64,000 nucleotides of DNA from Methanobacteriota archaeon (GCA_963720465.1 OY970393.1:288001-352000); one strand, 5' to 3'; shown: positions 38,020-59,219, numbered from the stretch's first letter. Notes: generated by a model from the sequence alone, not told the origin. Made by a program: numbers and translations.

Positions 38020-38139
38020 GCAGAAAGCTCTATTATCAATGCTCGGCTAGATCAATGCTCGGCTAGCAAGCTGTGCTGTGTCAGGCCGTCACTTGGCGTG
38101 CGCAAGCCCGAGTAGTGTAGCGGCCTATCGTAGAGACCC
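38020..38139 (+). repeat. Decayed copy of tRNA-Asp promoter + 5' half (oldest att-like junction) with 16-bp tandem duplication 38035-38066
   Basis: gcagaaagctctattatcaat...gcgtgcgcaagcccgagtagtgtagcggcctatc matches 41799-41892 and 59055-59148. Confidence 0.85.
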
Positions 38140-38289
38140 CTCCAGCTTTTCTCCTCTTTTTAACTCTTGTCGCAGAACTACAGGCTATTTTGCGATCGCT
38201 GAGCGGGTGCCATAGTACCATCCTGACAAGTGAAATGGCGCAGGAGGATCTCTACCCGATCAACGAGGTCGCTAAAATCTCCGGTAAGC

Positions 38290-38490
38290 TGCAGTCCACA
38301 TTTTCGCGAGGCTAGCTAGCAAATTACAAAAAGTGGCATGCTGCCGGTCTCGATGACAAGAGGATTAACTGGATGGCAAAGCGACCGCGACGCACGAATG
38401 GCATAATCAGGAAGGCAACCACACATGCTGTGCGAGACGCCGCCTTAGATAGATACAAGCGCGAATACGCGAAACGCAAGGTGTCCGTAG
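38290..38490 (+). pseudogene. Integrase remnant (start of int(C))
   Basis: LANYKKWHAAGLDDKRINWM...GII...AVRDAAL..Y...YAKRKV matches LNHYKKWRIEGLDRKSSNWM...AVRDVALTKY...YSKRKV of 41982-42953. Confidence 0.8.
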
Positions 38491-38786
38491 TCAGCGGTGA
38501 GACTATCTTGTCCTTCTTCAGTTCAGGAACACCGACGCCGGTATCGTGAACCTTAATAGCAACAGTGTCGTCTAAGCGAGAGGCGCTGATGGTCAGCTCC
38601 CGTCATCGGGCACCGCCGTACCGAGTTCAAAATAAGGTTGGCGAAGACGCGGTGCATGACGTACGGTTCGGGTCATCTGTCGATTCGCGGTGATGATGAC
38701 GGGAACGTTATGGCGCTTTGCTACTTTTGGTGTAGGGCTCCATCCCGGCGTCAGCCGCTGAATCAGATCAAGAGTAGGCTGTTGCC

Positions 38787-39143
<357 letters not shown>

Positions 39144-39187
39144 CTAGCTCGATCTGTGCCATGCGCCAGCGCGTACCGCTTTCCGGT

Positions 39188-40408
39188 CTAGATGCGATAC
39201 GCAATTTCGTCGTGCGTTGACAAATCGAGCCCTTGCTCTTCATCGTCAGAACCTACACGCAGGCCAATTGTTAAGTCTATCGATTTGGCGATGACCAGAG
39301 TTACGACAAACGAGTACGCAAATGTGACGGCAATGCCCAACGCTTGCACCGCGAGTTGATGCGCGTTGCCGTAGAGTAAGCCGGTTCCAGCCGCGTTGAT
39401 GAACGGGCTCGCAAAAAGACCGACAGCAAGCACACCCCAGATTCCTGAGAACCCGTGAATGCCGAAGACGTCGAGAGCATCGTCGTAGCCGAGCCGTGGC
39501 TTGATGTATGAAATGGCGGTATACGAAATGAGCGCCGCGCCGAATCCGATAACCATGGTGCTCATCACATTGACGAACCCGGCCGCAGGTGTGATCGCAG
39601 CAAGTCCGGCAATGGCGCCTGACGCCGCGCCGAGCAGCGTCACCTTGCCGAAGCGAAGGTACTCGATGAGCATCCACACGAGCAAGCCGACGGCAGCTGA
39701 GGTGTTTGTCACAATAAACGCCGAAGTCGCGAGCTGTCCAGCGGCGAGAGCCGAGCCGGCGTTAAATCCAAACCAGCCTACCCAGAGGAGCCCGGCGCCG
39801 AGGATGGAATAGGCGAGCTGTTGTGGGAACAATCTCTTGTCCTGCCGTGGCTTAAGGAGGAGGACGAGGGCAAGAGCCGCGACCCCACTGTTTATATGGA
39901 CGACAATGCCTCCTGCAAAGTCGAGAACGCCGAGTTGTGCGAGCCATCCGCCTCCCCAGACCCAGTGCGCGACCGGCAGGTAAACGAGCGTGAGCCACAG
40001 CGGAATGAAAAGCATCCACGCACCGAACTTGATGCGCTCGACAAGTGCGCCGGAGATAAGAGCGACGGTAATCGCTGCAAACGCCATCTCAAATACTGCG
40101 TAGAGCCCTAGCGGGATCGTGCCGTACAACGCATGCGATTCAAGGACGCCTTGGAAGAAGGGATTGGTCGGTATTCCGATAATCCCGTGGATGTCACTCC
40201 CAAAGACCGTTCCATAGCCGCAGATAAACCAAATCACGCTCACGACTGCATAAGCTGCAAACGACAAAAATAGCGTGTTTAGCACGTTTTCTTTTTTTAC
40301 CAACCCGGAATAGAACAGGGCGAGCCCCGGGATGGTCATCAGGATGACAAGTGCCGTCGAGATGAGCATCCAGGCCGTATCACCAGAATTCAAGACTGCT
40401 ATGACCAT
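39188..40408 (-). CDS. amtB: Ammonium transporter
   Basis: [43 protein letters not shown]. Confidence 0.97.
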
Positions 40409-40455
40409 ATTATCCTCCAAGTCTCTAACGACCGAGAGCCCGTAGCTCGCGAGTC

Positions 40456-40469
40456 GGAAGGCGGAATCC
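40456..40469. promoter_or_regulatory. Putative NrpR-type nitrogen operator
   Basis: GGAA-ggcgga-ATCC (one mismatch to GGAA-N6-TTCC) ~25 nt downstream of a minus-strand TTTATA box serving amtB. Confidence 0.5.
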
Positions 40470-40915
40470 TGTTGCCCCTCATTTCATCTGTCCTATAAAT
40501 ATCGTTCGTTTTGCCACAGCGAAGCGCCTCAGACGTGCAAGAACCTAATCCATGCGCGTAGCAAAAACCCAAAGTCTTTAGGAATTTCCGGCGAAACGTG
40601 ATCCTTTTTAGAAAATGGTGTTAGTCTTCGTTACGATAGTCGGATTCGTTACAGGATTCGTTATACGGGGCGGCATAAAATCTCGCGCGCGAGCATCTGC
40701 GTTGAGTGGGATGCGTACTGTTTTAGCGGTTATGCTAGGTGAAAATTAGACTTCAGCTAATACCCCATGTCCCGTCTTGAGCTGGCCAGCAGTCAACACG
40801 GCTTGGCTTCTAAACGACACGCTCATATTGGAGCGAATCATATTCAGTTCACTCCCATGAATTGAGATCGCGCAACGATGTGAAGAGAAACTCGGCTTCG
40901 GAACGGTGAATAAAG

Positions 40916-41401
40916 ATGAGCGACGGGCGCCTTGGGCTCAGCGCTGAAGAAATACAGAGGTTCGAAGAACACGGCGTAGGGATTGGTGATGTTCTCGCCG
41001 AAGCACGACTCTTCACAACGGTTTCTGGAATTCTGTTCGGTTTCTTGCTTACCGCATCAGTCGCCGATACAAGTCAGCTTCCCGGAATTATCCAGCGCAT
41101 CCTTCTGCTTCTAGCACTTGTCTGCACGGCGTCTGCCACGCTGATGTTCATTTTGCCCCCCTTATACCATCATCTGCGCTTTCCAATGGACCAAAAGCAA
41201 AGGGCGCAATTTTTCTGGCGGAGTCACAAGTTTCTCGTGTGGGGCATAGTCCCTCTGTATGCGGGTGTGTATTTCTCGGTTTTTCTCGCCTTATATTCAC
41301 TCATCGGGGCTTATGCCGTTATATTGGCGACAGGAATACTGATAGTCCCTTTTATTGCATACGAGCTGAGGAAGGTCGGCGACCCAAAGGAACTTGGGTA
41401 G
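40916..41401 (+). CDS. 4-TM membrane protein, DUF6328-like
   Basis: EARLFTTVSGILFGFLL and PPLYHH resemble the family pattern. Confidence 0.65.
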   Translation: MSDGRLGLSAEEIQRFEEHGVGIGDVLAEARLFTTVSGILFGFLLTASVADTSQLPGIIQRILLLLALVCTASATLMFILPPLYHHLRFPMDQKQRAQFFWRSHKFLVWGIVPLYAGVYFSVFLALYSLIGAYAVILATGILIVPFIAYELRKVGDPKELG

Positions 41402-41589
41402 ACGCTAGCAACAAATTCTTCGGGCATTCAACGCATCATCCGCCGCGGCGGACGCAACAGTAATGACGCTTACTCAATGCAGCGCACCACGACCTCGCCC
41501 AGTGCAGCATCTAGGCTACAAACAAAGACGGATACATATGCGACCGTGCAGACGGCGCTTGTCTCAAAAGTGTGCCGATTAATCGGGCG

Positions 41590-41868
41590 CATCTAACACT
41601 CTTGAAACTGGAAGTGAGGGAAAGCATGCATTTTTTATCGTCATTAGCGAACTATACCAAAAAGTGACAGTGTTTTAAAACAGAGAGAAGAAGTCTCAAA
41701 AAACAGATGCAGATGTAGCAGGCTTCGGCGGAGTCTTTGTTAAAAACGCGTCGGATTCCACGAAACAGTCAGAGGCAGACTCACGCTCGAAAAGCACAGC
41801 AGAAAGCTTTATTATCAATACTCGGCTAGTAAGCTGTGCTGCGTCAGGCAGTCGCTTTGCGTGCGCAA
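41590..41868 (+). pseudogene. Decayed int(N) copy
   Basis: ETGSEGKHAFFIV...DSVLKQREEV...DSRSKSTAESFIINTRL matches ORF 58740; two frameshifts. Confidence 0.8.
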
Positions 41869-41908
41869 GCCCGGGTAGTGTAGCGGCCTATCATGGAGCC
41901 CTGTCGAG
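41776..41908 (+). repeat. attL-like direct repeat: tRNA-Asp promoter + 5' half through the anticodon loop
   Basis: 41799-41908 identical to 59055-59164 (110 bp); 133 bp with 2 mismatches. Confidence 0.92.
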
Positions 41909-42953
41909 CGCTCCTTCTGTTTTTGAAGCTCTTTTTGCCTTTAAAGGAGTTTATAGATCTCTTACTCCAATTGAGTCAGATTTGATCGGTGACAAGACAA
42001 GGATAACGCGCCCAAACGATTCAGTGAACGGTCAAAGCCTCGCTTCGCTCCAATTGACATTCTCGCTAAATCAACTTAATCATTACAAAAAATGGCGTAT
42101 AGAAGGTCTTGATCGGAAAAGCAGTAACTGGATGAACAAAGCGGCTGAGATTGTTTGGAACTGTACGCAGGGCATTATCAGCGAGATAACAATGGATGCG
42201 GTGCGGGATGTTGCCTTAACCAAATATACGTGCGTTTATTCAAAACGAAAGGTATTGTATTTCGCCAAAGGTCTTCTCAAATATCTTACTAAAACAACCT
42301 TCGACACTCGTTTTCAGTCGTTTGAACTCTTCTTGGCCATGCCTAAGGTGCTCAAAACGCGGAAGCACGTGACGAGCCGCATCGTGACTACAGAAGACGT
42401 TGAAAACGTGCTTAAAGCAATTGAACGGGCGTATAACGGCGGGCGAATTGACGCCTCTCATTATCACAACTACAACGCCTTAGTGTTATTCGGCGCGTTT
42501 ACAGGGCAACGACCTTTGGCAACAATAGCACGACTAAGAGTTGGCCAGTTCGAGGAAGCTGTAAAGATGCAGAAACCGTTCGTCGATATTCTTCCGGAGC
42601 AAGACAAAATTCGGATGCAACACTACTGCCCTCTTCACCCACAAGTTGTAGAGGCGATATTGCCAGTTTTAGATAGCCGGCGAGATAGCGAGACTGTTTT
42701 TGAGCAGCTTTCGTTTCAAGAGTGGCTTAAGCACACCAACATTCGGTTGCTGCACGGCGGCGCTCGCATAGTCAACGGAGACCTAAGAAAGTTTTGTGAG
42801 CAACATAGCGATATCATTCAGTGGGATCAGTCAAACAAGAATTACATTCTCACTCACGGCGTTTCCGGAGTTGATTGGCGGTTTTACAAACATCCGCTGC
42901 CTGAGCACGTGTACGACGTATATATGCAGTATTGGGCGGCTGTGCGATTCTGA
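41907..42953 (+). CDS. Tyrosine recombinase catalytic fragment int(C)
   Basis: FTGQRP (Arg-I), DKIR (Lys), GDLRKF (Arg-II), LTHG, WRFY (Tyr); frame open back through the tRNA half-site. Confidence 0.85.
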   Translation, partial: SAPSVFEALFAFKGVYRSLTPIESDLIGDKTRITRPNDSVNGQSLASLQLTFSLNQLNHYKKWRIEGLDRKSSNWMNKAAEIVWNCTQGIISEITMDAVRDVALTKYTCVYSKRKVLYFAKGLLKYLTKTTFDTRFQSFELFLAMPKVLKTRKHVTSRIVTTEDVENVLKAIERAYNGGRIDASHYHNYNALVLFGAFTGQRPLATIARLRVGQFEEAVKMQKPFVDILPEQDKIRMQHYCPLHPQVVEAILPVLDSRRDSETVFEQLSFQEWLKHTNIRLLHGGARIVNGDLRKFCEQHSDIIQWDQSNKNYILTHGVSGVDWRFYKHPLPEHVYDVYMQYWAAVRF

Positions 42954-43011
42954 TTCAATGCAAAAAAAGAAGGAAAAGAAAGCGCGAACGCTACCTACTA
43001 TTCACGCAGAC

Positions 43012-43353
43012 TTACCGCTTCACCGCTGCCATCTGTTCTGCTTTGGCCTTGAGAACCTGCCGCGCGAGTTCCTTTCCGGTTTCGTAATCTAAAACTTCGT
43101 GCACCTCGCTCTCACTCCATGGGAAGTTAGCGAACGCGCCCGCGAACAAGCCTTTGGCGTCTGCGGTGCTAATTGCGTATCCTGAGACTGCGTTTGCGAA
43201 CCAGCCGACCTCGAGTAGTCGACCACTCTTTAGCCCTTGGTCAATTCCTGCCCACAGCATCTCATTCAACTTTAAACCTTCAGCCGGATCAATCGGCCAC
43301 GGCGCATTCGGGTTCAAACGCCAAAGCGTTATATACTTCGGTATATCCCTCAC
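43012..43353 (-). CDS. Hypothetical protein, DUF3303-like
   Basis: KYITLW...G...EVGWF....GYAI; RBS GGAGGTGA; the expected start reads ATA. Confidence 0.6.
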   Translation of the reverse strand: MRDIPKYITLWRLNPNAPWPIDPAEGLKLNEMLWAGIDQGLKSGRLLEVGWFANAVSGYAISTADAKGLFAGAFANFPWSESEVHEVLDYETGKELARQVLKAKAEQMAAVKR

Positions 43354-43511
43354 CTCCTTTGACGTAGGCGGCAGTTGTTAGCCGCCGCTCAAAAACAAGT
43401 AAAAAGGCGCGTTAAAGGAATAAGTGTTGTTGTTACAGTCGCTTGTTACAGAGATTGACGTGATTTTTCAGTCGCGGAGCGACACACAATTTTGCAGTTC
43501 AATGACTAGAA

Positions 43512-43635
43512 GACCAGCTAAATAAGAATCACATTCTCACTCATGGCGTTTCAGGAGTTGATTGGCGATTCCACAAACACCCTCTTCCCGCTTCGGTGTG
43601 ACGCCTATCTGAAATACTGGAGAGTTGTGAGACTC
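43512..43635 (+). repeat. Integrase 3'-end copy 1
   Basis: DQLNKNHILTHGVSGVDWRFHKHPLP...YLKYW. Confidence 0.88.
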
Positions 43636-43666
43636 GACGCTTTTGCCCAGTTAAAAAGGCCGCTCG

Positions 43667-43939
43667 CTATTCCTTGCCTCGCTTGAGTTTCTGATATTCT
43701 CGTTCAGTGATCCTGTCTGTCATTCCACTCCCCATAAAGACGCTCGCGCCGTGTGCAACTAATCCGATTCCCCAAAAACCGAGCACAAAGACGAACCACG
43801 GGAACCCGGCACCTGTAAACCACCATACGGCGACGAGAAAAAGGTTCACCACTACATAAATTGTGAAATGGATATAGAATCCGACCTTTTCTTCAGCCCG
43901 CTTTCGGGCCAGTCTCATCAGCTCTTCATCGCTTTGCAC
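43667..43939 (-). CDS. 2TM-domain protein
   Basis: ARKR....GFYIH..IYVVVN..L...W....PWF.....WGIGL..H. Confidence 0.88.
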   Translation of the reverse strand: MQSDEELMRLARKRAEEKVGFYIHFTIYVVVNLFLVAVWWFTGAGFPWFVFVLGFWGIGLVAHGASVFMGSGMTDRITEREYQKLKRGKE

Positions 43940-43986
43940 TATTTCACCTCCGAGATATGGTCTCAGATTGGATCATGCTTTGTTCG

Positions 43987-44409
43987 TCAACTCCACTCGT
44001 AGAACACATTGGTTCCGACCTTATCGTCGCCCCCGCCTTCCACGACGCAGATGGTGCGGTTGATCCACGCAAGCTTCTCAGACGTCGTCATGAAGGTCAC
44101 GGTGCCCGTGAGCTTCCCTCCCGCGCCAGGGGCTTTTCCTGCATAGCAGAGTTTCCAGACTACGGAATCGCCGTCAGTCGTGGTCATGACCCCTTGCGCG
44201 GTGCCCGTTGTTATGCCCGTGGGCCGTACAAGATTGCGCATAGTTCCCATATTGGTGGCCTTGACGCCTTTGGCCCTTCCAAAGCCGGTAATCTCGCCAG
44301 TTACGCTATACTCAGATTCAACGCCTTCGGATCCTACGGATTTTATGGCAAACCCTCTTGGAGTGATTTTTTCCTCAAATAGCTTCTCTCCTATGGCCAA
44401 AATCTTCAC
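43987..44409 (-). CDS. Hypothetical beta-rich protein
   Basis: Clean 140-aa ORF; F.TTSEKLAWIN...YEW pattern seen in archaeal hypotheticals. Confidence 0.65.
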   Translation of the reverse strand: MKILAIGEKLFEEKITPRGFAIKSVGSEGVESEYSVTGEITGFGRAKGVKATNMGTMRNLVRPTGITTGTAQGVMTTTDGDSVVWKLCYAGKAPGAGGKLTGTVTFMTTSEKLAWINRTICVVEGGGDDKVGTNVFYEWS

Positions 44410-44473
44410 CTGTTGCGCTGATTCTGCCTTCAGTATTTATTAGCTACCCCCAACGCGAGCGAAAAAAAGCAGA

Positions 44474-44550
44474 TTGACGCACGCGGAGCAAGCATTCTCA
44501 ACATAAGCTGCCTGAGCAGGTCTACGACGTATATATAAAATATTGGCAAA
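44474..44550 (+). repeat. Integrase 3'-end copy 2
   Basis: LTH...HKLPEQVYDVYIKYW. Confidence 0.8.
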
Positions 44551-44607
44551 ATACCCAGCTAGAAAATTAAACTGTCGCTAACAGTTTGATCAAATGAACA
44601 CTGAAGC

Positions 44608-44805
44608 GTGAGGAGTAAAGCCTGGGTTAACCTCTTTGTGAGTGCTCTTATCATCGCTACCATCATCGTTGCAGTCACCGATGCTCTTGAATTTTATGTT
44701 GTCTGGAGTGGAAAAGCAAAAATAACGCCATTGTTCGTTATCTTGGTTATCGTAGTGACGATGGTACCTATGGCAATCAACCTCTGGGTTCACATTTTCA
44801 GGTAG
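44608..44805 (+). CDS. Small two-TM membrane protein
   Basis: Two hydrophobic stretches in 65 aa. Confidence 0.45.
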   Translation: MRSKAWVNLFVSALIIATIIVAVTDALEFYVVWSGKAKITPLFVILVIVVTMVPMAINLWVHIFR

Positions 44806-44845
44806 CTTGGCAAGGCGCCATATCGCGGCTCATAAAAGGATTAGA

Positions 44846-45071
44846 GTCGAGTAGGGTACCTACCAGCATCAGCTCCCAGATTCAATGCATGATATCTACA
44901 TGAATTATTGGGTAGATGTGCGTTTAACGACCTAAGCTCATTTCTTATGCTTCCTCCGGGTCACAGCAGCGCGATCAATGAACAACGTTTTTGTTTGCCC
45001 GCCCATTTTGGTGTACATCGGAAGACCGTTTGTCAGGCACGCACGAGGAAACTCGATCTGAGTGGCGTAGA
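44846..45071 (+). repeat. Integrase 3'-end copy 3 plus stub of the 47504 methyltransferase leader and start
   Basis: YQHQLPDSMHDIYMNYWVDVRLTT*; 44915-45071 parallels 47373-47530. Confidence 0.85.
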
Positions 45072-45231
45072 GGCTCCGACTCTTAATCACGCGTGAACCC
45101 CATTCGCGCTTATAATTAATTCGGGGATCGTGGCACCGAGTCTAGCAATTATGACCATCCTTGGTTAATTGAATCTAGCAAGTGGCGGTGCTGTTCCCAA
45201 GCCAACTTATAGAATCTCAACGAACACAGTG

Positions 45232-45726
45232 ATGAGGGCTGTGGTGAACACCAGCTTTATAATAAGGCCAATGTCTCGTAATGATTTTAGCGAGCTTACG
45301 GAAGTTATAGATACGTCTTTTTTATGGTTTGTAAGGTCTTTGGCGCTTCATAGCGTGCGAGAAGGGCAACAAGTGCTTATAAGCGAAGCGCAAGGAACAG
45401 CGGTTGGATTTGTTAAACTAACCAATTTTCAAGTGGGTAGCGGTAAGTTCGGGCGCATACAATGGATTGCGGTTCACCCGCAATTTCGCAGAAAAGGAAT
45501 TGCGACTGCACTCGTGAATGCTGGATTTGAGTCTTTGACACACGCAGGGGCAAAAGCTGTTTTTGTTACGGTGAGGAGGAGAAATACTGCGTCTTTAACA
45601 GTATTTCGCAGCCAGGGCTTTAGAAAAATAGGATTTTTGGAACTCTGGCCGCTTTTCGGGTTGCGGATATTCGAGTTTTATAGAGAAATTTGGCTTGCCC
45701 CTTGGATACTTGTTTTAATGCAATGA
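45232..45726 (+). CDS. GNAT-family N-acetyltransferase
   Basis: IAVHPQFRRKGIATAL, N.ASL..F...GF. Confidence 0.88.
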   Translation: MRAVVNTSFIIRPMSRNDFSELTEVIDTSFLWFVRSLALHSVREGQQVLISEAQGTAVGFVKLTNFQVGSGKFGRIQWIAVHPQFRRKGIATALVNAGFESLTHAGAKAVFVTVRRRNTASLTVFRSQGFRKIGFLELWPLFGLRIFEFYREIWLAPWILVLMQ

Positions 45727-45787
45727 TTAGTTTGGCAGCGCACACAACAAAAAGTTAGGCTAAATACGCTAAAGATCCTTGCAATAC

Positions 45788-45930
45788 CGTGATACGATCG
45801 GGTGTGATCAATCAAATCGATCGTATGCTTGACTCACGGAGTTCGCGGTGTCGACGGGAAGCAGCACAAGCATCCGCTGCCGGAACACGTGTACGACGTG
45901 TATATGCGATATTGGGCGGATGTGCGATTC
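45788..45930 (+). repeat. Integrase 3'-end copy 4
   Basis: DTIGCDQSNRSY/LTHGVRGVDGKQHKHPLPEHVYDVYMRYWADVRF. Confidence 0.9.
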
Positions 45931-45995
45931 ACACCGTGGAAAGACCTGTAGTGACTGCTGACAGGTGAAAAGATAACATAACAACGGGAGGTTAA

Positions 45996-46451
45996 TCACA
46001 GGCTTTTTTCTTTCAATCCACGCGCAAATACTCGTGCGTGCTCTAAATCTTCCTCGTTTGGCCTTCCTTTGTTAATCCCTCCGACGAGTCTCAAAGGCCC
46101 GACCGTATCCCATCCCTTGCACGAGAATTCACCAACAATAGCGAATCCTCGGCTCTCGAGTAGTTCCTTAAAAGCAGCGTAGTGTTTTGTCCCCCCTCTG
46201 CCACTCGTGGAGAACACAAAGGCCTGTTTTTCTGTGACAACGGGAAGTGCCTCGGCAAACTGCGTGATGGTCTTGTGGAACTTCATGCCGTAGATGCCGG
46301 AACCAAACCCGACGAGATCATAAGTCGTCACATTGTCAGCTTGTGCCTGATTGACAGGAACAAGATCTGCCGCCAACTCTTCTGCCATCACCTTCGCTAT
46401 TTTTTCCGTGTTCTGGTGGTGGATAGAAGCATAAACAATCAATGACTTCAT
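45996..46451 (-). CDS. Flavodoxin-family protein
   Basis: IVYASIHHQNTEKIA, GFGSGIY, FSTSG, NKGRPNEEDL. Confidence 0.92.
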   Translation of the reverse strand: MKSLIVYASIHHQNTEKIAKVMAEELAADLVPVNQAQADNVTTYDLVGFGSGIYGMKFHKTITQFAEALPVVTEKQAFVFSTSGRGGTKHYAAFKELLESRGFAIVGEFSCKGWDTVGPLRLVGGINKGRPNEEDLEHARVFARGLKEKSL

Positions 46452-46694
46452 GACGGAAGTCTGATAGCGCTAATCTTATATTAGCAATAAAGGCCAGCTA
46501 GCGACCAGTTGTGACGATTTACAGCGTCTCACATTATAGGGAGAGCGCAGACTTGTTCTATACGTTTTATGAGCACGTTATGCACGCTCTTTCTTCTGTG
46601 AAGTCGAAAGGTGACTTATTAGTAAAGGAGCGCAGCAATATTTATATTAGTTAAACCTATTAAGCTGTATTAGATTGAAATAAGGTGATATAAG

Positions 46695-46988
46695 GTGGAT
46701 AACCAGAACAATGAACAGACGAGCTGTATAGACGTGCACTATGAGCGTGACAATAAGAGGCTGGCTGGAGCGGTGTGTGTGGCGCTCAGCAAGAATGTAG
46801 GGAGAAAAGATCGCAAGGTTGACCTCATCTTCATGCCGGAGGAGGAACATGCTTTTTCGGTGAGGAGCACTACTGAACTGATAAACATTCTCGATCATTG
46901 GAAGGTGTCGTTCGAAGAGCGAAAGCGGGTTTTTGACTTCGTTGCTGAGCGGTTGCGCATGCTTGCTGGTGAGGACACAGTAGCGTAG
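46695..46988 (+). CDS. Hypothetical protein (97 aa)
   Basis: RBS AGGTGA before GTG, AT-rich promoter-like region upstream. Confidence 0.5.
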   Translation: MDNQNNEQTSCIDVHYERDNKRLAGAVCVALSKNVGRKDRKVDLIFMPEEEHAFSVRSTTELINILDHWKVSFEERKRVFDFVAERLRMLAGEDTVA

Positions 46989-47005
46989 TAAAGGGAAGGA
47001 AGTTT

Positions 47006-47393
47006 GTGGAGTTTAGGGAACATCCAAAATCCGCAAGCTCTCAACTAAAAAGATAGGATCTACCACAAATCAGACTACCTCCGCGGCTTGCTAACACCGT
47101 CGACCAAAAAATCGATATCTTCGAAACCGAGCACACTGGCACTATAGCTCTTTTTGGAAGTGGGTCAAACGAAGGAAGATCCCGATGTCACAGTTTCCCG
47201 GCATTTCGTGCTTGGTGACCTGCGGAGGTTGTGCGAAGAACAAGGCGATACGATAGGGTGGGTCAATCAAATCGCGGTATATTATGACGCACGGCGTCAG
47301 CGGTATCGACTGGAAGCACTATAGCATCCGCTGCCGGCTAACGTGTACGACGTCTATATGCAGTACTGGGCGGATGTGCGTTTAACGATCTAA
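47006..47393 (+). pseudogene. Internally deleted integrase: int(N) start fused to 3'-end copy 5
   Basis: GTSKIRKLST...PQIRLPPRLANTVDQKIDIFETEH then GDLRRLCEEQGDTIGW...THGVSGIDWKHY...VYDVYMQYWADVRLTI*. Confidence 0.85.
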
Positions 47394-47503
47394 GCTCGTT
47401 TCTTATGCTTCTTCTCGGTCACAGTAGCGCGGGGAACGAACAATGTTTTTACTTAGCCAGCCCATTTTGGTGTACAATCGGAAGACATTCGTAAGGTAGT
47501 ACG

Positions 47504-48304
47504 ATGAAACTTGATCTGAGTGGCGTAGAGAAGACGTTACTCGTTCCTCTGTGGGGGCGGGCAAAACTTAGTCGAGAGAACCCTTCCATCCTTAACGATA
47601 CGAAGGCGACTGAACTCGTTGAACAGCTTGATTACGATTTTTCGAGGTTCGACAAAACTCTCGGCATACTCGGAAATCTTATGTTCGCGGCAATAGCGAA
47701 GCATGTCGACGAGAAGACCCGCGCGTACATCGCTGAGCATCCCAAAGCGTCGGTCATTGATCTTGGGGCGGGCCTTGATACTACATATTACCGGGTCGAC
47801 AACGGATCGATTCACTGGTACGACCTTGACCTTCCTGCGGCTATCGACCTTCGACGGCGACTGATTCCCGAAGCCGCTCGGTCGACGAGCATCGCAAAAT
47901 CATTGCTGGATACCAGTTGGTTTGACGATATTACTGACACTGCGAACGGCGTATTTATGATCGCAGCAGGAGTGCTCATCTTTTTTCAAGAGTCTGACAT
48001 TAAATCGTTCTTCTCATCGCTAGCAGACAGTCTCCCCGGCATGGAGATCGTGTTTAATACGCAGTCAACATTCGCCAAACTGAGGAGCAATTGGGGCATG
48101 CGGAGGATGGGGATGAAAACAACGAAATGGGCCATGAAGGATGCACGCACGATAACAAAATGGGATAATCGCATCAAGGTTTTGGATCAGCTTCCCTTGT
48201 TTAAGAACATTCCACGAAACCCTGCGTGGGGTAGCTCGGTCAAGAGATTGATGAATCTTTCCGACAGCAATGGAATGATGAACGTTGTTCACCTGCGAGT
48301 ATAG
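47504..48304 (+). CDS. Class I SAM methyltransferase (LCM/TcmP-like)
   Basis: TLLVPLWGRA, DLGAGLDT..YR, WYDLDLP. Confidence 0.9.
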   Translation: MKLDLSGVEKTLLVPLWGRAKLSRENPSILNDTKATELVEQLDYDFSRFDKTLGILGNLMFAAIAKHVDEKTRAYIAEHPKASVIDLGAGLDTTYYRVDNGSIHWYDLDLPAAIDLRRRLIPEAARSTSIAKSLLDTSWFDDITDTANGVFMIAAGVLIFFQESDIKSFFSSLADSLPGMEIVFNTQSTFAKLRSNWGMRRMGMKTTKWAMKDARTITKWDNRIKVLDQLPLFKNIPRNPAWGSSVKRLMNLSDSNGMMNVVHLRV

Positions 48305-48383
48305 CGTTCATAGTTTGGCTGACATAACTAGAATTGACGACCATAGAAAACGTCAGGGGCACTGGCTTAGTTTTACACGTGCT

Positions 48384-48954
48384 TCACCATACGAATGGGA
48401 TTAGTCTCCACGTATGCTTCTTGTACGCTGCGTACTGATCTCCAAAAGACGCGACGAGCATGCGCTCTTCGACTTCAATGCGATAGCGGTACGCTGCGAC
48501 AAAGGTCAACGTTACGAGTACCTGCGACAATCCAATTGACCGTCGCCAATCCTGCCCCTACCCATAATACGATAACCCCCAGATATCCGGGGTGACGCAC
48601 GTACTTGTACGGCCCTTCCTGAACGACGCGCTGCCCCTCTGATATGTGTAACGTGCGAGTGTAGAATCTACCGAGCGTCTGAAATGCCCACACCCGAAGC
48701 GTGATGCCGCAGAGCATAACGACGATGCCGATCCAACCGATAACATCGACCATGACGCCTAGTTGGAAGTAGTTGAGCGCGTTAGCGACAATGACAAGAA
48801 TAATGTTTATGAAGAGCGCCAGACTCAGGAGCCGCGTGCTCGCCTGATCGAACGGGCCTCCCTTGAGCGTTGTAGCTGCTTGGCCCTTTCGCCTGCTTTC
48901 GGTGATCGCGTAGTACACGATCAAGATGAGGTATGCAACAAGTATCGAGTACAT
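48384..48954 (-). pseudogene. Isoprenylcysteine carboxyl-methyltransferase family, frameshift near 48521
   Basis: GPYKYVRHPGY; shifted frame gives RIEVEERMLVASFGDQYAAYKKHTWRLIPFVW*. Confidence 0.85.
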
Positions 48955-49167
48955 AGAGCTGGGATCTTTGTGTGATCAGTGATTGAACGACGTAGACTTA
49001 TGCTTCTTTCTGTTTGAATTTTCCAAGCTCATGCAGTTTGGCGTTAACCCAATAATCTTTTCTTAAGCACAACCGATGTCTCGATTTGCCGCGTAGGAGT
49101 GAATGACATCTTCTTCTGCTCCTCAAGCACATGATCCTTCGCTGCGACTGCGGTTCAAGTCAACAAC

Positions 49168-49857
49168 CTACAACATCATCGCCGACGTCACGCCACGTGC
49201 GATAAGGAAGATGCCGACGATGAAGAACACAGCGGCAATGAGCTGACTGCCGTGTTTCTTTAAGAAACGGATGATCGGATCGAAGATGCGGTCGAAATTT
49301 CGGGGAGTCACGGCATAAATGGCGAGTGGCCCCCAACACCAGCATAGCGCTATGGCCATTACTAGGAAAAATGCGATTGCTTTGTCGTGAACGGATAGCA
49401 CGACGACCCCGATATCTTTGCTTGCGGCGAGAGCTGGAAGCGATGAGAAGATATTGCCGAAGCCGAAGGCGATTCCCATTGAAACCAGTGCTCCTGAGCC
49501 CATTGTCGTCGCGTCAAAAGTTTTTGATTCCTGTTTCTTCAGGAGCGAACGAGCGCTTGCGTAGAGGAGCAGGAGACCGAGGATGAAGTCGATCGCCACC
49601 GTCGCCAACGACGGCTTGCCACTGGTCGTCGTCAGGCTTCCGATGGCTAGAAAAACTAGGCATATCAGCGAAAATACGACACAGTACGTTGCGACAAAGA
49701 TCGCTCCTTTTTTGAGCCGGTGTTCCGCTGAGCTCAGTACGGTCATGACGGTTATGACCGCCAACGGGCTTATCATGGCCGCGATGGCAAGTGGTATTAC
49801 GACCGCGAGAAGTTGGGGTAGGCTGACGAGCTCGCCTCCGAATATGGGGATCGCCAT
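49168..49857 (-). CDS. GAP/Sap-family membrane protein
   Basis: PLAIAAMISP, six TM segments, FLKKHG..L.A.V...VG..LI..G. Confidence 0.75.
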   Translation of the reverse strand: MAIPIFGGELVSLPQLLAVVIPLAIAAMISPLAVITVMTVLSSAEHRLKKGAIFVATYCVVFSLICLVFLAIGSLTTTSGKPSLATVAIDFILGLLLLYASARSLLKKQESKTFDATTMGSGALVSMGIAFGFGNIFSSLPALAASKDIGVVVLSVHDKAIAFFLVMAIALCWCWGPLAIYAVTPRNFDRIFDPIIRFLKKHGSQLIAAVFFIVGIFLIARGVTSAMML

Positions 49858-49906
49858 TGCTTCACTTCCGTTCTTCAGAGCATAGCAGCCATTTAAGCGC
49901 CGTAAC

Positions 49907-50308
49907 TTAAGCGTTCCGATTTAGCGCCGAGTCTGAGCGTGAAACCAACGTGAATAAGACCGAACGGCCGATGTTGCGTCTTCCCACGTGCCCACTAAAA
50001 TAGTGGAGGTGCGCTCGCGACCCTGCTAAAATCGATGTGACAAACACAGTGAGGGTCAGGGCAAGCTGTTCTTTCAACTCAAGCGCGAACGTTCGCAAAT
50101 ACGACCCTTCAAGCCGTTTGGCTCTGCCGAGGCAATAGCTGCAGGCCGCTCCGTAAATGACCATATACCGTAGTTTAGCATCTAGCTGGGCCCGTTCAAC
50201 GCTTTTTATAAGATCTTCCAGCGGTATTGTGTGCAGGTAGGCGGCAAAGAGGTTATAGATTGCCTCTCTGGTCTCGGCTTTAACTTTCGGGGTGTATATG
50301 CTTTGCAC
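49907..50308 (-). pseudogene. 3'-truncated paralog of the 149-aa unknown protein
   Basis: YNLFAAY...IYGAACSYCLGRA.RL.GSYLRTFALELKEQLA; diverges after TSIL. Confidence 0.8.
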
Positions 50309-50589
50309 AAAAGGCAGATTGATCCTGCAGCTGATAATGGCGCTGCGAGAACGTGCTGAAAGTAAGTGTAGTTTTTCAAATGCAATTCAGGTTTCTTTGG
50401 GCAACTGCTAACTGTCATTTGGTAGCTCATTTCGTAGTTTTAAGCTCAAATAAGCTTTCTTTTCATAACGAACTTGAAGCGTGAGGATTCTCGCCGCTGT
50501 ATATCAAGGAAAGCAAAATGTAACAGACTGACATGTTGACCTAAGGAGCTGCAAGTTATGAAAAAAAAAATCATGTAAATGTCAAAGAG

Positions 50590-51123
50590 ATGAATTTTGA
50601 TCAATTATTTAAACAAATTTCTCCGGAAGAGATATCCGACAATGTATTTACGTTGGCAGGAAAAGATTTTGCGGTTATTACTGCGGGCAAGGAAGATCAT
50701 TATAATTCCATGACAGGCAGTGGGGGTGGTTTGGGGCTTCTTTTCAAGAAACCCACCACTTGGTGTATTCTTCGAGCAGACCGTTATACGCTTGAAATAA
50801 TTCAAAAAGAGCACACATATACGCTGTCTTACTTCCCGAATGAATATAAGGAACAAATACTCTTTTTGGGAAGTAAATCCGGAAGAGATAGTGAGAAAAT
50901 GAAAGAAGTTGAATTGACAAGTGTTCAAACTCCTTCCGGAGATATGTCTTTCAAAGAAGCCAGACTAATTATTGAATGTAAATTAACGGAAATTACTACC
51001 GCCAATCCCAATGATTTTTACACACAAGAAGCTAAAGACTGGATAAACGAAGCTTACAAAGAAGCAAGCGATTATCGCAAATACGTATTTGGGGAAATCA
51101 CCCATGTTTGGGTAAAGAAATAA
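50590..51123 (+). CDS. Flavin reductase-like protein
   Basis: ITAG....NSMT...GG.G.L..KP, RYT, GSKSGRD, IECK, FGEI. Confidence 0.85.
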   Translation: MNFDQLFKQISPEEISDNVFTLAGKDFAVITAGKEDHYNSMTGSGGGLGLLFKKPTTWCILRADRYTLEIIQKEHTYTLSYFPNEYKEQILFLGSKSGRDSEKMKEVELTSVQTPSGDMSFKEARLIIECKLTEITTANPNDFYTQEAKDWINEAYKEASDYRKYVFGEITHVWVKK

Positions 51124-51194
51124 GAATAAGATTAATCGACATTACGCCAATGTCTCTTTGAAAATCCGTGATCGGCTCGCGGGTTGAGTTTTGC

Positions 51195-51345
51195 ACGCGA
51201 CGGAATCTCATCACTTTAAACTCCGCTCCTCGCGATAACCTTCTTCGTAGATTTCGAGCACAGCAATCAAGCTTTTCTGCATCGTGTGTGCACATCACCT
51301 GCGCCAACACGTCAATGATCTGGTGAAGAGGGGTCTCTTCCTTTC
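51195..51345 (-). repeat. 3' remnant of the 149-aa gene
   Basis: ETPLHQIIDVLAQVMCTHDAEKL. Confidence 0.8.
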
Positions 51346-51497
51346 GGCGTCTGCACTCGGCGCCTCTTGACATCACTTTCAATCGGAGTCTTTATCGTGC
51401 CTTCTGACACGCGTTGGGGCGTCTATATATACTGCGAATAATCGTGTGTATACAAAATCACTTGGAGTAGATGGGCGCAAAAGGGTGATAATCGAAT

Positions 51498-52373
51498 ATG
51501 GTGCAGGAAGAAGCCTATGAAAAAATTAGTTCCACTGCTAAGCTAGTAGCGCACATAAGGAGCTTTACCGATATTCCGTTTGCTAAGGAGATAGCCGTAG
51601 CAAGCGGAGCAGAGAAAGACTTTCAAACATTAGCAGGCAAGAGCGCGGAATTTATGACTCAGTCTGCTTTCAATTTGGAGGCACGCTGCAAAACTACTGA
51701 TCAGATCATTGCACGTTACCATATTACACAAGTTTTGGAAATCGCTGCTGGACTTTCACCGCGTGGTCTCGCAATGACCGAAAATCCTGACGTAGTCTAT
51801 GTAGCCACTGATTTGCCGCAGATTTTAGAACAAGAAAAAGCAATTGCCGAATCCATATTTGCAAAATTGAACATACATCGTTCAAACCTGTATTACCGGG
51901 TTGCAAATGCACTTGATCGAGAGAGCTTGTTGCAAGCGGCTATTCCTTTTCGATCAGACAAGCCTGTTGCGATTATCACGGAGGGCTTACTTCCGTACCT
52001 TACCAGCGGAGAAAAAGAAACCTTGGCAGGCAACATCCATGCCCTTCTTAGACAATATGACGGAGTATGGGTTACACCGGATGTGAACACCAAACAAACC
52101 CTCAAGTTTTTTTCTCAAGCAGATGACACTATGCAGCAACGGATGCAGAATGTATCTGGCGCGACTGGGCGTGACATCGAAACGAACACATTTGAAGACG
52201 AAAATGCTGTGCGACAGTTTTTCACCAATGCTGGATTTACGATCGAAGAATATCCTTGGTCAAATGTTCTTGAAGATCTGTCTTCGGTGAAACTCTCGAA
52301 TCTCAATCGAGAGGAAATTCTTGAGATTCTACAGATGCTTATGACTTTGATTTTAACAATCCGTTCGAGCTGA
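51498..52373 (+). CDS. Class I SAM methyltransferase (LCM-like)
   Basis: IS.TAKLVA..R, VLEIAAGLSPRGL, TDLP, ITEGLLPYL. Confidence 0.88.
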   Translation: MVQEEAYEKISSTAKLVAHIRSFTDIPFAKEIAVASGAEKDFQTLAGKSAEFMTQSAFNLEARCKTTDQIIARYHITQVLEIAAGLSPRGLAMTENPDVVYVATDLPQILEQEKAIAESIFAKLNIHRSNLYYRVANALDRESLLQAAIPFRSDKPVAIITEGLLPYLTSGEKETLAGNIHALLRQYDGVWVTPDVNTKQTLKFFSQADDTMQQRMQNVSGATGRDIETNTFEDENAVRQFFTNAGFTIEEYPWSNVLEDLSSVKLSNLNREEILEILQMLMTLILTIRSS

Positions 52374-52388
52374 AAGCCGCTTTGCGCC

Positions 52389-54156: not shown

Positions 54157-54194
54157 ACAAGAGGGGCGCAACTAAGGGTTCGAGAGGAATCTCG

Positions 54195-58739: not shown

Positions 58740-59219
58740 ATGCAGCACATCGGAAAGTCAAAAATCGGCAAGTTATCTGCCAAAGGGAATGACTACCCAC
58801 AACTTCGCTTGCCTCTACAATACGCAAATACTGTAGGCGAGGTAGCTGATGTCTTTGAGACTGAACACGAGGGAAAACAAGCATTTCTCATCGTGACAGA
58901 ACATAGTGTGCCAAAGGAAGACACGGTTTTAAAACCGAGAGAAGAAGTTTTAAAACCATGTGCAGATTTGGCACAGCCTTTAACGGAAATCCTTCCTAGA
59001 AGTGCACATGCTTCCGCGGAACCGTTCGCGACAGACTCGCGCTCGAAAAGCACCGCAGAAAGCTTTATTATCAATACTCGGCTAGTAAGCTGTGCTGCGT
59101 CAGGCAGTCGCTTTGCGTGCGCAAGCCCGGGTAGTGTAGCGGCCTATCATGGAGCCCTGTCGAGGCTCCGACTCGGGTTCAAATCCCGACTCGGGCGCTC
59201 CTTTTTTGCTTTCTTTTGA
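58740..59219 (+). CDS. Integrase N-terminal fragment int(N) (AbrB-like YPxLRLP domain), reads through tRNA-Asp
   Basis: In frame with int(C) across the att repeat; homologous N-terminus fused to an int tail at 47006-47393. Confidence 0.75.
   Translation: MQHIGKSKIGKLSAKGNDYPQLRLPLQYANTVGEVADVFETEHEGKQAFLIVTEHSVPKEDTVLKPREEVLKPCADLAQPLTEILPRSAHASAEPFATDSRSKSTAESFIINTRLVSCAASGSRFACASPGSVAAYHGALSRLRLGFKSRLGRSFFAFF
59055..59075 (+). promoter_or_regulatory. BRE/TATA-like tRNA-Asp promoter embedded in int(N)
   Basis: GAAAGC-TTTATTAT ~55 nt before the tRNA; present in all three att-like copies (TCTATTAT at 38.0 kb). Confidence 0.6.
59125..59197 (+). tRNA. tRNA-Asp(GTC)
   Basis: GCCCGGG/CTCGGGC acceptor, GAGCC-CTGTCGA-GGCTC, TCGGG-TTCAAAT-CCCGA, T-run downstream. 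Confidence 0.97.

What the first reader, a model, noticed from the sequence alone, without database searches (positions are those of the whole stretch)
41907..48304. Integron-like stack: the integrase's own 3' end is repeated five more times, each copy followed by different cargo genes
Seen: after int(C) (ends 42953), diverged copies of its last ~25-65 codons (THG..G.DW...HPLP..VYDVY..YW) lie at 43512, 44474, 44846, 45788 and ~47200, all on the + strand. They stop at nearly the same 3' point and start at variable 5' points. Each is followed by one or two unrelated genes: DUF3303-like (after int(C) itself); 2TM + hypothetical; small membrane protein; GNAT; flavodoxin + hypothetical; methyltransferase. 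Known: some archaeal split integrases (IntpTN3 type) also recombine short homologous segments. Inference: cargo accumulates by recombination within the integrase 3' end, which would serve as the cassette site, with the newest unit nearest the intact gene. That would be a gene-capture platform without attC hairpins.
Basis: partly seen in the sequence, partly recalled or inferred. Interest (0 to 1): 0.9.

Follow-up and report, generated by a model that had tools for sequence, protein, structure and literature searches.

The report
Stacked integrase tails shuffle cargo genes
Inside a mobile element lodged in an archaeal tRNA gene, five dead copies of the integrase gene's last codons separate small cargo genes, and comparison with about a hundred related loci shows that these stubs are the seams at which cargo modules are swapped and piled up.

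Summary
After int(C) (41982-42953) lie five co-oriented, 5'-truncated copies of its 3' end: 43512-43636, 44498-44547, 44844-44927, 45781-45932 and 47143-47385.

The pattern is lineage-wide. By my count this genome holds 49 such tails. Across the genome and 102 related loci there are 148 non-redundant tails.

The integrase is a split ("suicidal"), pTN3-like tyrosine recombinase. Its att is a perfect 110-nt repeat covering the tRNA-Asp promoter and 5' half.

- **Tails are relics.** Most are broken. Their 5' ends vary for the same unit. Intact int-cargo versions exist in relatives, and one tail carries the int(N) head.
- **Tails are also recombination seams.**
  - Unrelated int bodies are followed by 96-100% identical DNA, with the switch in the last ~40-65 nt of int.
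  - Of 30 tail pairs sharing an upstream unit and junction, 15 have unrelated downstream cargo.
- **No fixed site.** Crossover positions differ, there are no hairpins, and cassette ends are not fixed.

This scan reached a similar view on another genome (e1-1503585).

The parts
41592..41798 (+). relic of an int(N) from an older element on the left (38020-41908); it reads in frame into att and int(C) but lacks the N-terminal head
   Evidence: tblastn with int(N): residues 36-141, 58% identity. The frame is open from 41679. No head was found by HMM.
41799..41908 (+). attL: perfect 110-nt copy of 59055-59164, covering 70 nt of tRNA-Asp upstream DNA plus the first 40 nt of the tRNA
   Evidence: position-by-position comparison; alignment and sequence
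41982..42953 (+). int(C), the catalytic part of a split tyrosine recombinase (323 aa from the first start codon)
   Evidence: ORF. Invariant R177, K209, R269, H292 and Y302 in 11 homologues. The 10 best fold matches are tyrosine recombinases or a recombinase-like regulator.
42889..42935 (+). conserved terminal block of int (HPLPEHVYDVYMQYW coding); the zone where crossovers cluster in related loci
   Evidence: repeat family D1; crossover mapping
43012..43353 (-). 113-aa cargo gene behind the live int; no Pfam family
   Evidence: Paralogues lie elsewhere in the genome, and a copy lies behind the int of L019.
43512..43636 (+). tail 1: frameshifted relic of an L004-type int(C)
   Evidence: profile 802-928. 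It aligns end to end with the 3' end of the intact L004 int, whose neighbour is the same 2TM gene.
43667..44409 (-). cargo: 2TM protein (43667-43939) and a 140-aa hypothetical (43987-44409); no tail between them
   Evidence: Pfam 2TM 2.9e-21. Copies at genome 2296.5 kb (89% nt) and 367.4 kb (90% nt). dN/dS 0.04 and 0.44.
44498..44547 (+). tail 2, of the type ending KYWQNTQLGN/EN*, always linked to the small membrane gene behind it
   Evidence: The junction with the upstream gene is shared with genome 367351, L031, L056 and L087.
44608..44805 (+). cargo: 65-aa membrane protein
   Evidence: There are four further copies in the genome, three of them directly behind a detected tail, and one copy behind the intact int of L029.
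44844..45072 (+). tail 3 (44844-44927) plus a remnant of the methyltransferase leader and first codons (to 45072)
   Evidence: It has the same upstream unit as genome 366993 and L080_8536 but a different downstream.
45169..45726 (+). cargo: GNAT acetyltransferase; no tail of its own in front
   Evidence: Pfam 6.1e-15
45781..45932 (+). tail 4, with an in-frame stop
   Evidence: The GNAT flank and junction position match L087_16177, where a different tail and the small membrane gene follow.
45996..46988 (.). cargo: flavodoxin (45996-46451, minus strand) and a 97-aa hypothetical (46695-46988, plus strand)
   Evidence: Pfam Flavodoxin_5 1.4e-11
47060..47155 (+). head: relic of int(N) residues ~18-50, abutting tail 5
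   Evidence: tblastn 54.5%, E 7e-6; translation; head HMM E 1.7e-06
47143..47385 (+). tail 5, with frameshifts; together with the head it is an int gene that lost its middle, including att
47504..49099 (.). cargo: LCM-type methyltransferase (47504-48304, plus), ICMT-type methyltransferase (48475-48954, minus) and a 3' relic of a GNAT-like gene (about 48998-49099)
   Evidence: Pfam. The unit is shared with L024 (85% over 1769 nt), where the GNAT-like gene is whole.
49100..49857 (-). tail-less unit: SfLAP-family membrane protein (49168-49857); the junction at 49099/49100 lies 35 nt past where the int stop is in relatives
   Evidence: alignment with L011 (intact int), L021 and genome 1551 and 82 kb; Pfam
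58740..59165 (+). int(N): 142 codons with an N-terminal head domain, running through the tRNA promoter and 5' half
   Evidence: ORF; tblastn
59125..59198 (+). intact tRNA-Asp(GTC), the integration target; attR is 59055-59164
   Evidence: ARAGORN; Rfam 54.5 bits

Best explanation
The stack lies inside a 17.4-kb integrated element (41799-59164). Its integrase is a split, pTN3-like tyrosine recombinase that entered the 5' half of tRNA-Asp.

Each tail is the dead 3' stub of a once-complete int gene of a related element. The gene or genes behind it are the cargo that lay behind that int.

The stubs are not only debris. Together with the live int's own end they carry a conserved block of about 50-60 nt. 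That block is the seam at which modules are exchanged between arrays and elements.

The likely pathway (inferred, not shown):
1. A related element arrives at the same tRNA, giving tandem integration.
2. Recombination between a tail or int end of the incomer and the resident int end or a tail removes the internal att and int body. This fuses the two cargo sets.
3. Occasional illegitimate deletions create new stubs and clip neighbouring genes.

What is shown: the relic nature of the tails, the mosaic breakpoints, and the re-assortment of units.

What is inferred: the order of events and the enzyme. The enzyme could be host homologous recombination or a homology-guided activity of Int, as described for IntpTN3.
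For: **Split integrase.**
- Perfect 110-nt att repeat.
- int(N) lies at the far end.
- Conserved R, K, R, H and Y residues, and a tyrosine-recombinase fold.

**Tails are relics.**
- Broken frames in 42 of 57 tails of >=150 nt and 49 of 95 shorter ones, against 30 of 100 full bodies.
- The same unit has nested truncations.
- Intact int-cargo ancestors exist in L004, L011 and L029.
- Head-plus-tail fossil at 47060-47385.
- The junction at 49099/49100 cuts a gene that is whole in L024.

**Cargo is kept by selection.** dN/dS is 0.04-0.44 in 7 of 7 pairs.

**Tails are seams.**
- Three pairs of int bodies at 55-79% identity are followed by 96-98% identical DNA, and the switch lies in the last ~40-65 nt of int.
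- 16 lineage pairs share downstream DNA. Their homology breaks lie at -268, -62, -53, -50, -41, -35, -23, -23, -22, -14, +3, +6, +29, +37, +39 and +39 relative to the stop.
- 15 of 30 same-junction tail pairs have unrelated downstream DNA, about 10 independent events by my grouping.
- The small-membrane-gene module is attached to two int lineages, with the switch at the block.
- The same units occur in another order in L024, and in arrays tied to other tRNAs, for example tRNA-His.

**Scale.** 148 non-redundant tails against 90 full bodies, 10 3'-truncated and 13 other fragments.
Against: - **No enzyme is identified and no intermediate was seen.** The laid runs are contigs only and their joints are ambiguous.
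- **The tail block is short for host recombination.** The 47-nt core is 64-87% identical between the window's copies. Homologous recombination in Thermococcus kodakarensis is reported only for 500 bp or more (passage in PMC5495485).
- **Crossover positions are imprecise.** They are read from pairs without both parents, so each is bounded on one side only. Later decay of tails can shift them.
- **Many tail junctions are shared by descent between loci.** Counts of tails therefore overstate independent events.
- **Most loci come from metagenome assemblies.** Mis-joins at repeats cannot be excluded for single contigs, although intragenomic cases in the closed genome show the same pattern.
- **Mid-length relics are almost absent.** Only 2 of 148 tails start before profile position 543. 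I explain this only by argument.
- **Tail length does not clearly track divergence.** rho 0.15, p 0.09.
Confidence: 0.6

Rival explanations
1. Passive debris only. Elements piled up in tandem at tRNA-Asp. Random deletions then removed everything except selected cargo and the int stubs that abut it. The tails play no part in recombination.
For: - Three att copies and int(N) relics show repeated integration at this tRNA.
- Truncations are nested, tail-less junctions exist, and neighbouring genes are clipped.
- There is a head-plus-tail fossil.
- Tail starts are spread smoothly with no single peak.
- Stubs next to selected genes would survive longest.
Against: - Half of the same-junction tail pairs (15 of 30) have different downstream cargo.
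- Breaks of homology cluster in the last 62 nt of int: 9 of the 10 that fall inside int.
- Only 2 of 148 tails are longer than about 390 nt, although 90 full bodies exist. Uniform deletion end points would not give that.
- No att and only one head lie between the tails of this stack. None was found in the arrays at 364-371 kb and 2292-2313 kb.
- The same units sit in arrays at different tRNAs.
Confidence: 0.15
2. A true integron analogue. Int cuts and rejoins at a defined site in the last codons of its own gene and of every tail. Circular tail-plus-cargo cassettes are excised and inserted next to the live int.
For: - Arrays are co-oriented and start behind int, in 3 arrays of this genome and in many loci.
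- Crossovers concentrate in one conserved block.
- Modules re-assort.
- A related class of enzyme, IntpTN3, recombines non-att homologous segments of about 100 bp in vitro and in vivo (abstract and passages of PMC5495485).
Against: - Crossovers do not share one position: at or before about -55 in G_2296864/L024_4404, and after -14 in L076_5550/L080_8536.
- The same module has variable tail lengths and variable right ends.
- Orientation is mixed and units end in truncated genes.
- The tails share no hairpin.
- The block is no more similar to att than chance: 103 of 500 shuffles reach the observed score.
- No circular junction was seen, though the data could not have shown one.
Confidence: 0.15

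Closest known systems
pTN3-like 'suicidal' integrases of Thermococcales (IntpTN3; Cossu et al. 2017, PMC5495485; review PMC8371274)
   Same: - The att lies inside the int ORF, so the gene is split on integration.
- The target is the 5' half of a tRNA gene, so the restored tRNA sits behind element-borne upstream DNA. The review calls this unique to pTN3-like integrases among archaea (passage).
- IntpTN3 also recombines short homologous non-att segments. That activity would explain seams in 50-250-nt tails.
   Different: - No detectable sequence relation: Pfam PF16795 was hit by 0 of 11 family members, and PF00589 only weakly by 3 of 11. No PDB sequence match.
- The host is an uncultured archaeon of peat and freshwater sediment, going by record titles and run labels. 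It is not a hyperthermophile.
- Stacks of int tails are not described for pTN3 elements in the passages I read.
SSV1/SSV2 integrases and 'gene capture' by partitioned int genes (She et al. 2001, cited in PMC8371274 and PMC7253208; I did not read that paper)
   Same: Split int(N) and int(C) flank the integrated element. The captured DNA stays in the chromosome.
   Different: Here many 3' stubs lie in series inside one element and act as exchange points. Badel et al. 2020 state that tandem integration of suicidal-integrase elements was never observed in their 73-integrase data set (passages). I did not see their supplementary tables.
Module exchange between tandemly integrated archaeal elements by homologous recombination (Redder et al. 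2009, as summarised in PMC8371274)
   Same: Tandem integration at one tRNA followed by recombination between homologous parts gives hybrids and new cargo combinations.
   Different: The homologous part used here is a very short, conserved end of the integrase gene. It persists as orphan copies, which makes a repeated scaffold of many units.
Integrons (IntI, attI, attC cassettes)
   Same: - A tyrosine recombinase gene stands at the head of a co-oriented series of repeats.
- Each repeat is linked to one or two unrelated genes.
- Units re-assort between arrays.
   Different: - No attC-like hairpin.
- The repeat is the recombinase gene's own coding end.
- Units have no fixed ends, carry genes in both orientations, and include gene fragments.
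- The crossover position varies.
- The whole platform is itself a tRNA-integrating element.
Tandem accretion of genomic islands at bacterial tRNA genes
   Same: One tRNA gene is used repeatedly, with decayed integrase genes and mixed cargo.
   Different: In that case att copies separate the units. Here no att lies between the tails of the stack.

Membership tests
Tyrosine recombinase superfamily | Catalytic residues in order R ... K ... (H/K)xxR ... H/W ... Y near the C-terminus | tested here: met
   R177, K209, R269, H292 and Y302 are invariant in 11 of 11 aligned homologues. Assigning these residues to catalytic roles is my inference from order and spacing.
Tyrosine recombinase superfamily | Two-domain recombinase fold | tested here: met
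   AlphaFold model, pLDDT 74. The 10 best Foldseek PDB matches are all tyrosine recombinases or the recombinase-like MrpR: archaeal Xer 4a8e, Tn1549 Int, Brujita Int, Cre, XerH, lambda Int, IntI. The scores are weak: E 5e-3 to 5e-2, TM 0.25-0.38.
Tyrosine recombinase superfamily | Match to Pfam Phage_integrase (PF00589) above threshold | tested here: not met
   0 of 11 above threshold; 3 of 11 give weak hits, best E 0.027.
Suicidal (SSV-type, type I) archaeal integrases | The att site lies inside the int ORF; integration splits the gene into int(C) and int(N) at the two ends of the element | tested here: met
   The frame is open through att into int(C). int(N) 58740-59165 runs through the other att copy. 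The two copies are a perfect 110-nt repeat. Unsplit versions of 425-443 aa exist in public data.
Suicidal (SSV-type, type I) archaeal integrases | Phage_integr_3 domain (PF16795), named by the review as common to the SSV, pTN3-like and pT26-2-like families | tested here: not met
   0 of 11 members at E<=10. It works like these enzymes but is not a sequence member of the described families.
pTN3-like integrases | attB is the 5' half of a tRNA gene | tested here: met
   att covers tRNA-Asp positions 1-40 plus 70 nt upstream.
pTN3-like integrases | Low-specificity, homology-guided recombination of non-att DNA | not testable with these tools
   This needs the purified or expressed enzyme.
Integron | attC: imperfect inverted repeat that folds as a hairpin at each cassette end | tested here: not met
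   There are 3 inverted-repeat pairs in 42800-47450. None is shared by the tails.
Integron | Cassettes with defined ends, one orientation, mostly promoterless | tested here: not met
   Orientation is mixed. The same unit has variable tail length and right ends. Units end in gene fragments.
Integron | Cassettes re-assort by recombination at the repeat | tested here: met
   15 of 30 same-junction tail pairs have different downstream units. The switches lie inside the tails.
Tandem accretion at a tRNA gene | att copies between successive units | tested here: not met
   att copies lie only at 38020-38161, 41799-41908 and 59055-59164. None lies between the five tails.

The most novel reading that the evidence does not exclude
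The integrase itself recombines DNA at the conserved last ~20 codons of its own gene, guided by homology as IntpTN3 does. The gene's end and its orphan copies would then form a built-in cassette site. That would make this an archaeal gene-capture platform, functionally parallel to integrons but without attC hairpins, carried on a tRNA-integrating element.
Probability: 0.17. Interest if true: 0.85.

Novelty: new variant of a known kind. Interest (0 to 1): 0.6.

Why it matters
Split ("suicidal") integrases were described in hyperthermophilic archaea, with a few cases in Methanosarcinales. One study reported that tandem insertions of such elements were never observed.

Here a large integrase family that Pfam does not recognise does the same thing in uncultured archaea of peat and sediment. 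It has 633 relatives at E<=0.001.

These elements leave a regular, repeated architecture. The end of the integrase gene survives as many orphan copies, and these mark, and apparently mediate, the joining of cargo modules.

That gives a concrete, testable route by which small accessory genes are assembled and moved between elements with different tRNA targets. The accessory genes seen here are membrane proteins, methyltransferases, acetyltransferases, flavodoxin, and elsewhere in the island an ammonium transporter.

If the integrase is the catalyst, this would be a second, independent invention of a cassette platform.

Tried and rejected
**My first reading, held until.** I read the stack as plain tandem accretion plus random erosion, with the tails as passive relics. 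I dropped it as the whole story after searches showed switches of relatedness inside tails and int ends.

**Leads that went nowhere:**
- **Heads next to tails.** If every tail were a deleted tandem junction, int(N) heads should precede tails. The head HMM found only one in this stack (47060-47155) and none in the arrays at 364-371 kb or 2292-2313 kb.
- **Age against length.** Tail length against similarity of the last 66 nt to the nearest full int gave rho 0.15, p 0.09, n 132. This is inconclusive.
- **Young tails.** Of 164 tails, 33 had a full int at >=88% identity over >=60 nt. By my reading eight of the 30 kept were self-hits of int-tail doublets. The rest gave junctions from 307 to 886 with no sharp site.
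- **End points of similarity between moderately related int bodies.** They are scattered over the whole gene and do not separate recombination from rate variation.
- **Doublets (int followed within 20-60 nt by a tail).** Four of the five inspected (g1558, g1902, g2105, L006) share the spacer, so I count them as one ancestral event, not as recurrence.
- **Pseudo-att.** The tail block and att are no more alike than chance: 103 of 500 shuffles reach the observed score.
- **Hairpins.** None is shared by the tails.
- **Rfam.** Nothing in the region beyond chance-level hits.
- **PDB by sequence.** No match with the protein or with the profile.
- **Viral contigs.** No relative.

**Reads.** The four runs that hold the stretch are kept as contigs only. 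One of them may be the source of this DNA. Joints such as 45042->47501 (X2, depth 22) and 42910->49168 (X3) could be paralogous units, related strains or real variants. They give no verdict on excision or circular forms.

**Supplements.** Supplementary tables of PMC7253208 and PMC5495485 were not seen. They may list cases that bear on 'tandem never observed'.

**Searches for prior description.** Searches listed no paper on stacks of integrase 3' ends in archaea. I read listings only, apart from passages of PMC7253208, PMC8371274 and PMC5495485.

Full report
**What is there.**
The window is part of a closed 2.31-Mb archaeal genome. Record titles of its relatives call them Euryarchaeota, Methanomicrobia or Halobacteriota archaeon MAGs, several from bog, fen or peat projects. 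The runs that hold the stretch are labelled freshwater sediment.

At 41982-42953 lies a 323-codon ORF whose frame stays open upstream to 41679. Just upstream, 41799-41908 is a perfect 110-nt copy of 59055-59164. That stretch is 70 nt of DNA upstream of tRNA-Asp(GTC) plus the first 40 nt of the tRNA.

A 142-codon ORF at 58740-59165 reads through the second copy and matches the stretch upstream of the first. So 41799-59164 is an integrated element whose integrase gene was cut in two at its own att site, giving int(C) on the left and int(N) on the right.

- Eleven homologues share invariant R177, K209, R269, H292 and Y302.
- The ten best structural matches of a pLDDT-74 model are tyrosine recombinases or a recombinase-like regulator, at weak scores.
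- Pfam does not recognise the family. PF16795 was hit by 0 of 11 members and PF00589 only weakly by 3 of 11. The PDB gives no sequence match.
- The family is large: 633 proteins at E<=0.001, including unsplit forms of 425-443 aa.
- The 5'-half tRNA target matches what the review of archaeal recombinases calls unique to pTN3-like integrases (passage).

**The observation.**
Five 5'-truncated, co-oriented copies of the int 3' end follow the live gene, at 43512-43636, 44498-44547, 44844-44927, 45781-45932 and 47143-47385. All end at or near the stop, and their starts differ (profile positions 802, 864, 845, 777, 682 of 930).

The genes between them are a 2TM protein, hypotheticals, a small membrane protein, a GNAT, a flavodoxin and an LCM-type methyltransferase. 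The gene behind the live int has no Pfam match, so 'DUF3303-like' is not confirmed.

**It is not one locus.**
By my count of the listing, the genome holds 65 int(C)-like pieces:
- 9 full int(C) bodies;
- 3 3'-truncated pieces;
- 49 tails that reach the 3' end;
- 4 other fragments.

They are clustered in arrays.
- One array belongs to a 22-kb element at tRNA-His with the same layout.
- Another sits in a roughly 40-kb element that entered tRNA-Asp from the other side (56-nt perfect att).

With 23 loci from genomes and 79 from metagenomes, 315 hits collapse to 270 clusters at 97% identity:

| Class | Count |
|---|---|
| Full bodies | 90 |
| Tails | 148 |
| 3'-truncated | 10 |
| Other fragments | 13 |
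| Cut by a locus edge (dropped) | 9 |

Of the 148 tails, 146 start at profile position 543 or later. From 540 in bins of 50 the counts are 3, 5, 11, 14, 28, 41 and 44. This is a smooth rise to the 3' end with no single peak.

**Tails are relics of whole int genes.**
- **They are mostly broken.** An in-frame stop or net frameshift occurs in 42 of 57 tails of >=150 nt and 49 of 95 shorter ones, against 30 of 100 full bodies.
- **Tail 1 aligns along its whole length with the end of the intact int(C) of L004.** The neighbour of that int is the same 2TM gene. A copy at genome 2296.8 kb is cut further in.
- **The tail linked to the small membrane gene has its own ending (KYWQNTQLGN*).** It occurs with 14 to 91 codons retained and with different right junctions. 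L029 has a full int in front of that gene.
- **The methyltransferase-linked tail occurs in three lengths.**
- **Tail 5 is directly preceded by a relic of int(N) residues ~18-50.** It is therefore an int gene that lost its middle, att included.
- **Some junctions have no tail.**
  - At 49099/49100 a GNAT-like gene, whole in L024, is cut and joined to DNA that in L011 lies 35 nt behind an int stop.
  - At 45072 the methyltransferase start is cut and joined to the GNAT region.
- **Cargo is under purifying selection.** dN/dS is 0.04-0.44 in 7 of 7 pairs, and all copies are intact.

**Tails are also seams.**
Three further results changed my reading.

1. **Different int bodies, same downstream DNA.** Among 5432 pairs of full int genes, 15 share downstream DNA. 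Several of these have very different int bodies:
   - L036/L037: 79% in the body, 98% downstream.
   - L025/L088: 55-59% in the body, 96% downstream.
   - Genome 371062/L032_6158: 68-72% in the body, 96% downstream.

   Alignments show the switch to near-identity inside the last ~40-65 nt of int, in the conserved HPLP..VYDVYM.YW block. One further pair switches at about position 500-600.
2. **Breaks of homology cluster at the int end.** I compared 262 int ends and tails, each with 400 nt upstream and 300 nt downstream. Sixteen lineage pairs share >=93% identical downstream DNA but lose it upstream. The breaks lie at -268, -62, -53, -50, -41, -35, -23, -23, -22, -14, +3, +6, +29, +37, +39 and +39 from the stop. 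So 9 of the 10 breaks inside int lie in its last 62 nt. In these 9 pairs both members keep more int sequence than that, so the breaks are not truncation points.
3. **The mirror test.** I compared 141 tails of up to 260 nt. Thirty pairs have the same junction position (within 8 nt) and >=88% identical upstream DNA. In 15 the downstream DNA is also the same. In the other 15 it is unrelated. By my grouping these 15 represent about ten independent events.
   - Alignments show identity running through the upstream cargo, the junction and the first part of the tail, then fading inside the tail (G_2296864/L024_4404 and L004_15500/L087_13823).
   - In another case the identity fades near the tail's start (window tail 4/L087_16177).
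   - Window tails 2, 3 and 4 take part in such pairs.

Further support:
- The small-membrane-gene module is attached to two int lineages, with the switch at the block.
- L024, the closest relative (int 90% identical, att 99%), carries the methyltransferase unit before the 2TM unit, the reverse of the window.

**Mechanism.**
The crossover positions are not one site. One lies at or before about -55 and another after -14. There is no hairpin and no likeness to att. So I read the recombination as homology-guided within a short conserved patch, not as a classical site-specific exchange.

A pathway that needs no new chemistry is as follows:
1. A related, tail-bearing element integrates in tandem at the tRNA.
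2. Recombination between one of its tails (or its int end) and the resident int end (or a tail) deletes the internal int(N)-att-int(C).
3. The cargo sets are joined and the array is stabilised.

Illegitimate deletions make new stubs and clip genes. This would account for several features:
- no att lies between tails;
- the same units occur in arrays at different tRNAs;
- int bodies and cargo are uncoupled;
- mid-length relics are nearly absent, because units that spread are those already reduced to the patch. This last point is argument, not a test.

Which enzyme acts is open. Host recombination in one archaeon is reported only for >=500 bp. IntpTN3 recombines homologous segments of about 100 bp (abstract and passages of PMC5495485).

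**Comparison and novelty.**
The element works like pTN3-type suicidal integrase elements but is not a sequence member of the described families.

Badel et al. 2020 state that tandem or multiple integrations of suicidal-integrase elements at one site were never observed in their data (passages; supplements not seen). Here one tRNA-Asp carries three att copies on its left, a mirror-image element on its right, and a reconstituted but headless hybrid int.

Module exchange by recombination between tandem elements has been proposed for fuselloviruses (as summarised in PMC8371274). New here is the regular scaffold of orphan int ends that serve as the exchange points.

Three searches listed no description of it. 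This scan noted the same pattern on another genome (e1-1503585), with a similar conclusion. Notes on three further genomes describe the simple elements and an int-plus-remnant doublet.

**Caveats.**
- Most loci are metagenome assemblies.
- Many junctions are shared by descent, so counts are not counts of events.
- Crossovers are bounded on one side only.
- No intermediate or activity was observed.

Noticed in passing
window 49907-56850: A second, mirror-image stack lies on the minus strand. It has one intact 149-aa gene (54195-54644, no Pfam family) and partial copies at 50027-50308, 51214-51337, 52577-53008 and 56652-56846, interleaved with flavin reductase, methyltransferase, RDD, PAP2 and ClC genes. 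In L006, L007 and L008 this gene is the divergent neighbour of int(N).
   Followed up: partly
window 59147-59536 (minus strand) and genome 386189-387233: A second int(N) runs antisense into the 3' half of the same tRNA-Asp. Its att (window 59157-59212) is repeated perfectly over 56 nt next to an int(C) about 40 kb away. That element contains further tail arrays, including the one at 364-371 kb.
   Followed up: partly
window 38020-41908: An older element lies on the left. It has a diverged att copy (84-94%), a 5' fragment of int(C) (38289-38483) and, as cargo, glnK and an ammonium transporter. Paralogues of these (65% and 75% aa) lie at genome 447-449 kb. In relatives L001-L005 the host flank runs straight into att at this point.
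   Followed up: partly
L032 5256-7292, L034, L042 8884-10928, L052, L096; genome 370704-371969: Two int(C) genes lie head to head about 215 nt apart. They look like the left ends of two elements in opposite orientation abutting one target.
   Followed up: no
window 43987-44837; genome 367004-367857; L031, L056, L087: A two-unit block (140-aa hypothetical, tail, small membrane gene) with the same internal junction occurs in at least five places. Blocks of several units therefore travel together.
   Followed up: partly
window 45042/47501 in run X2: A contig at depth 22 joins the tail-3 flank directly to the methyltransferase gene and skips 2458 nt. It could be a deletion between the two methyltransferase-type repeats, an ancestral form, or a related strain.
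   Followed up: no
window 1807-1904 and 8796-8879: ARAGORN calls two tRNA genes with four-base anticodons. Rfam scores both as tRNA at 54.8 bits. They probably contain introns.
   Followed up: no
genome 15.5-19 kb: Four or five tandem paralogues of the RDD-family gene found in the element (53158-53766), at 51-64% aa identity.
   Followed up: no
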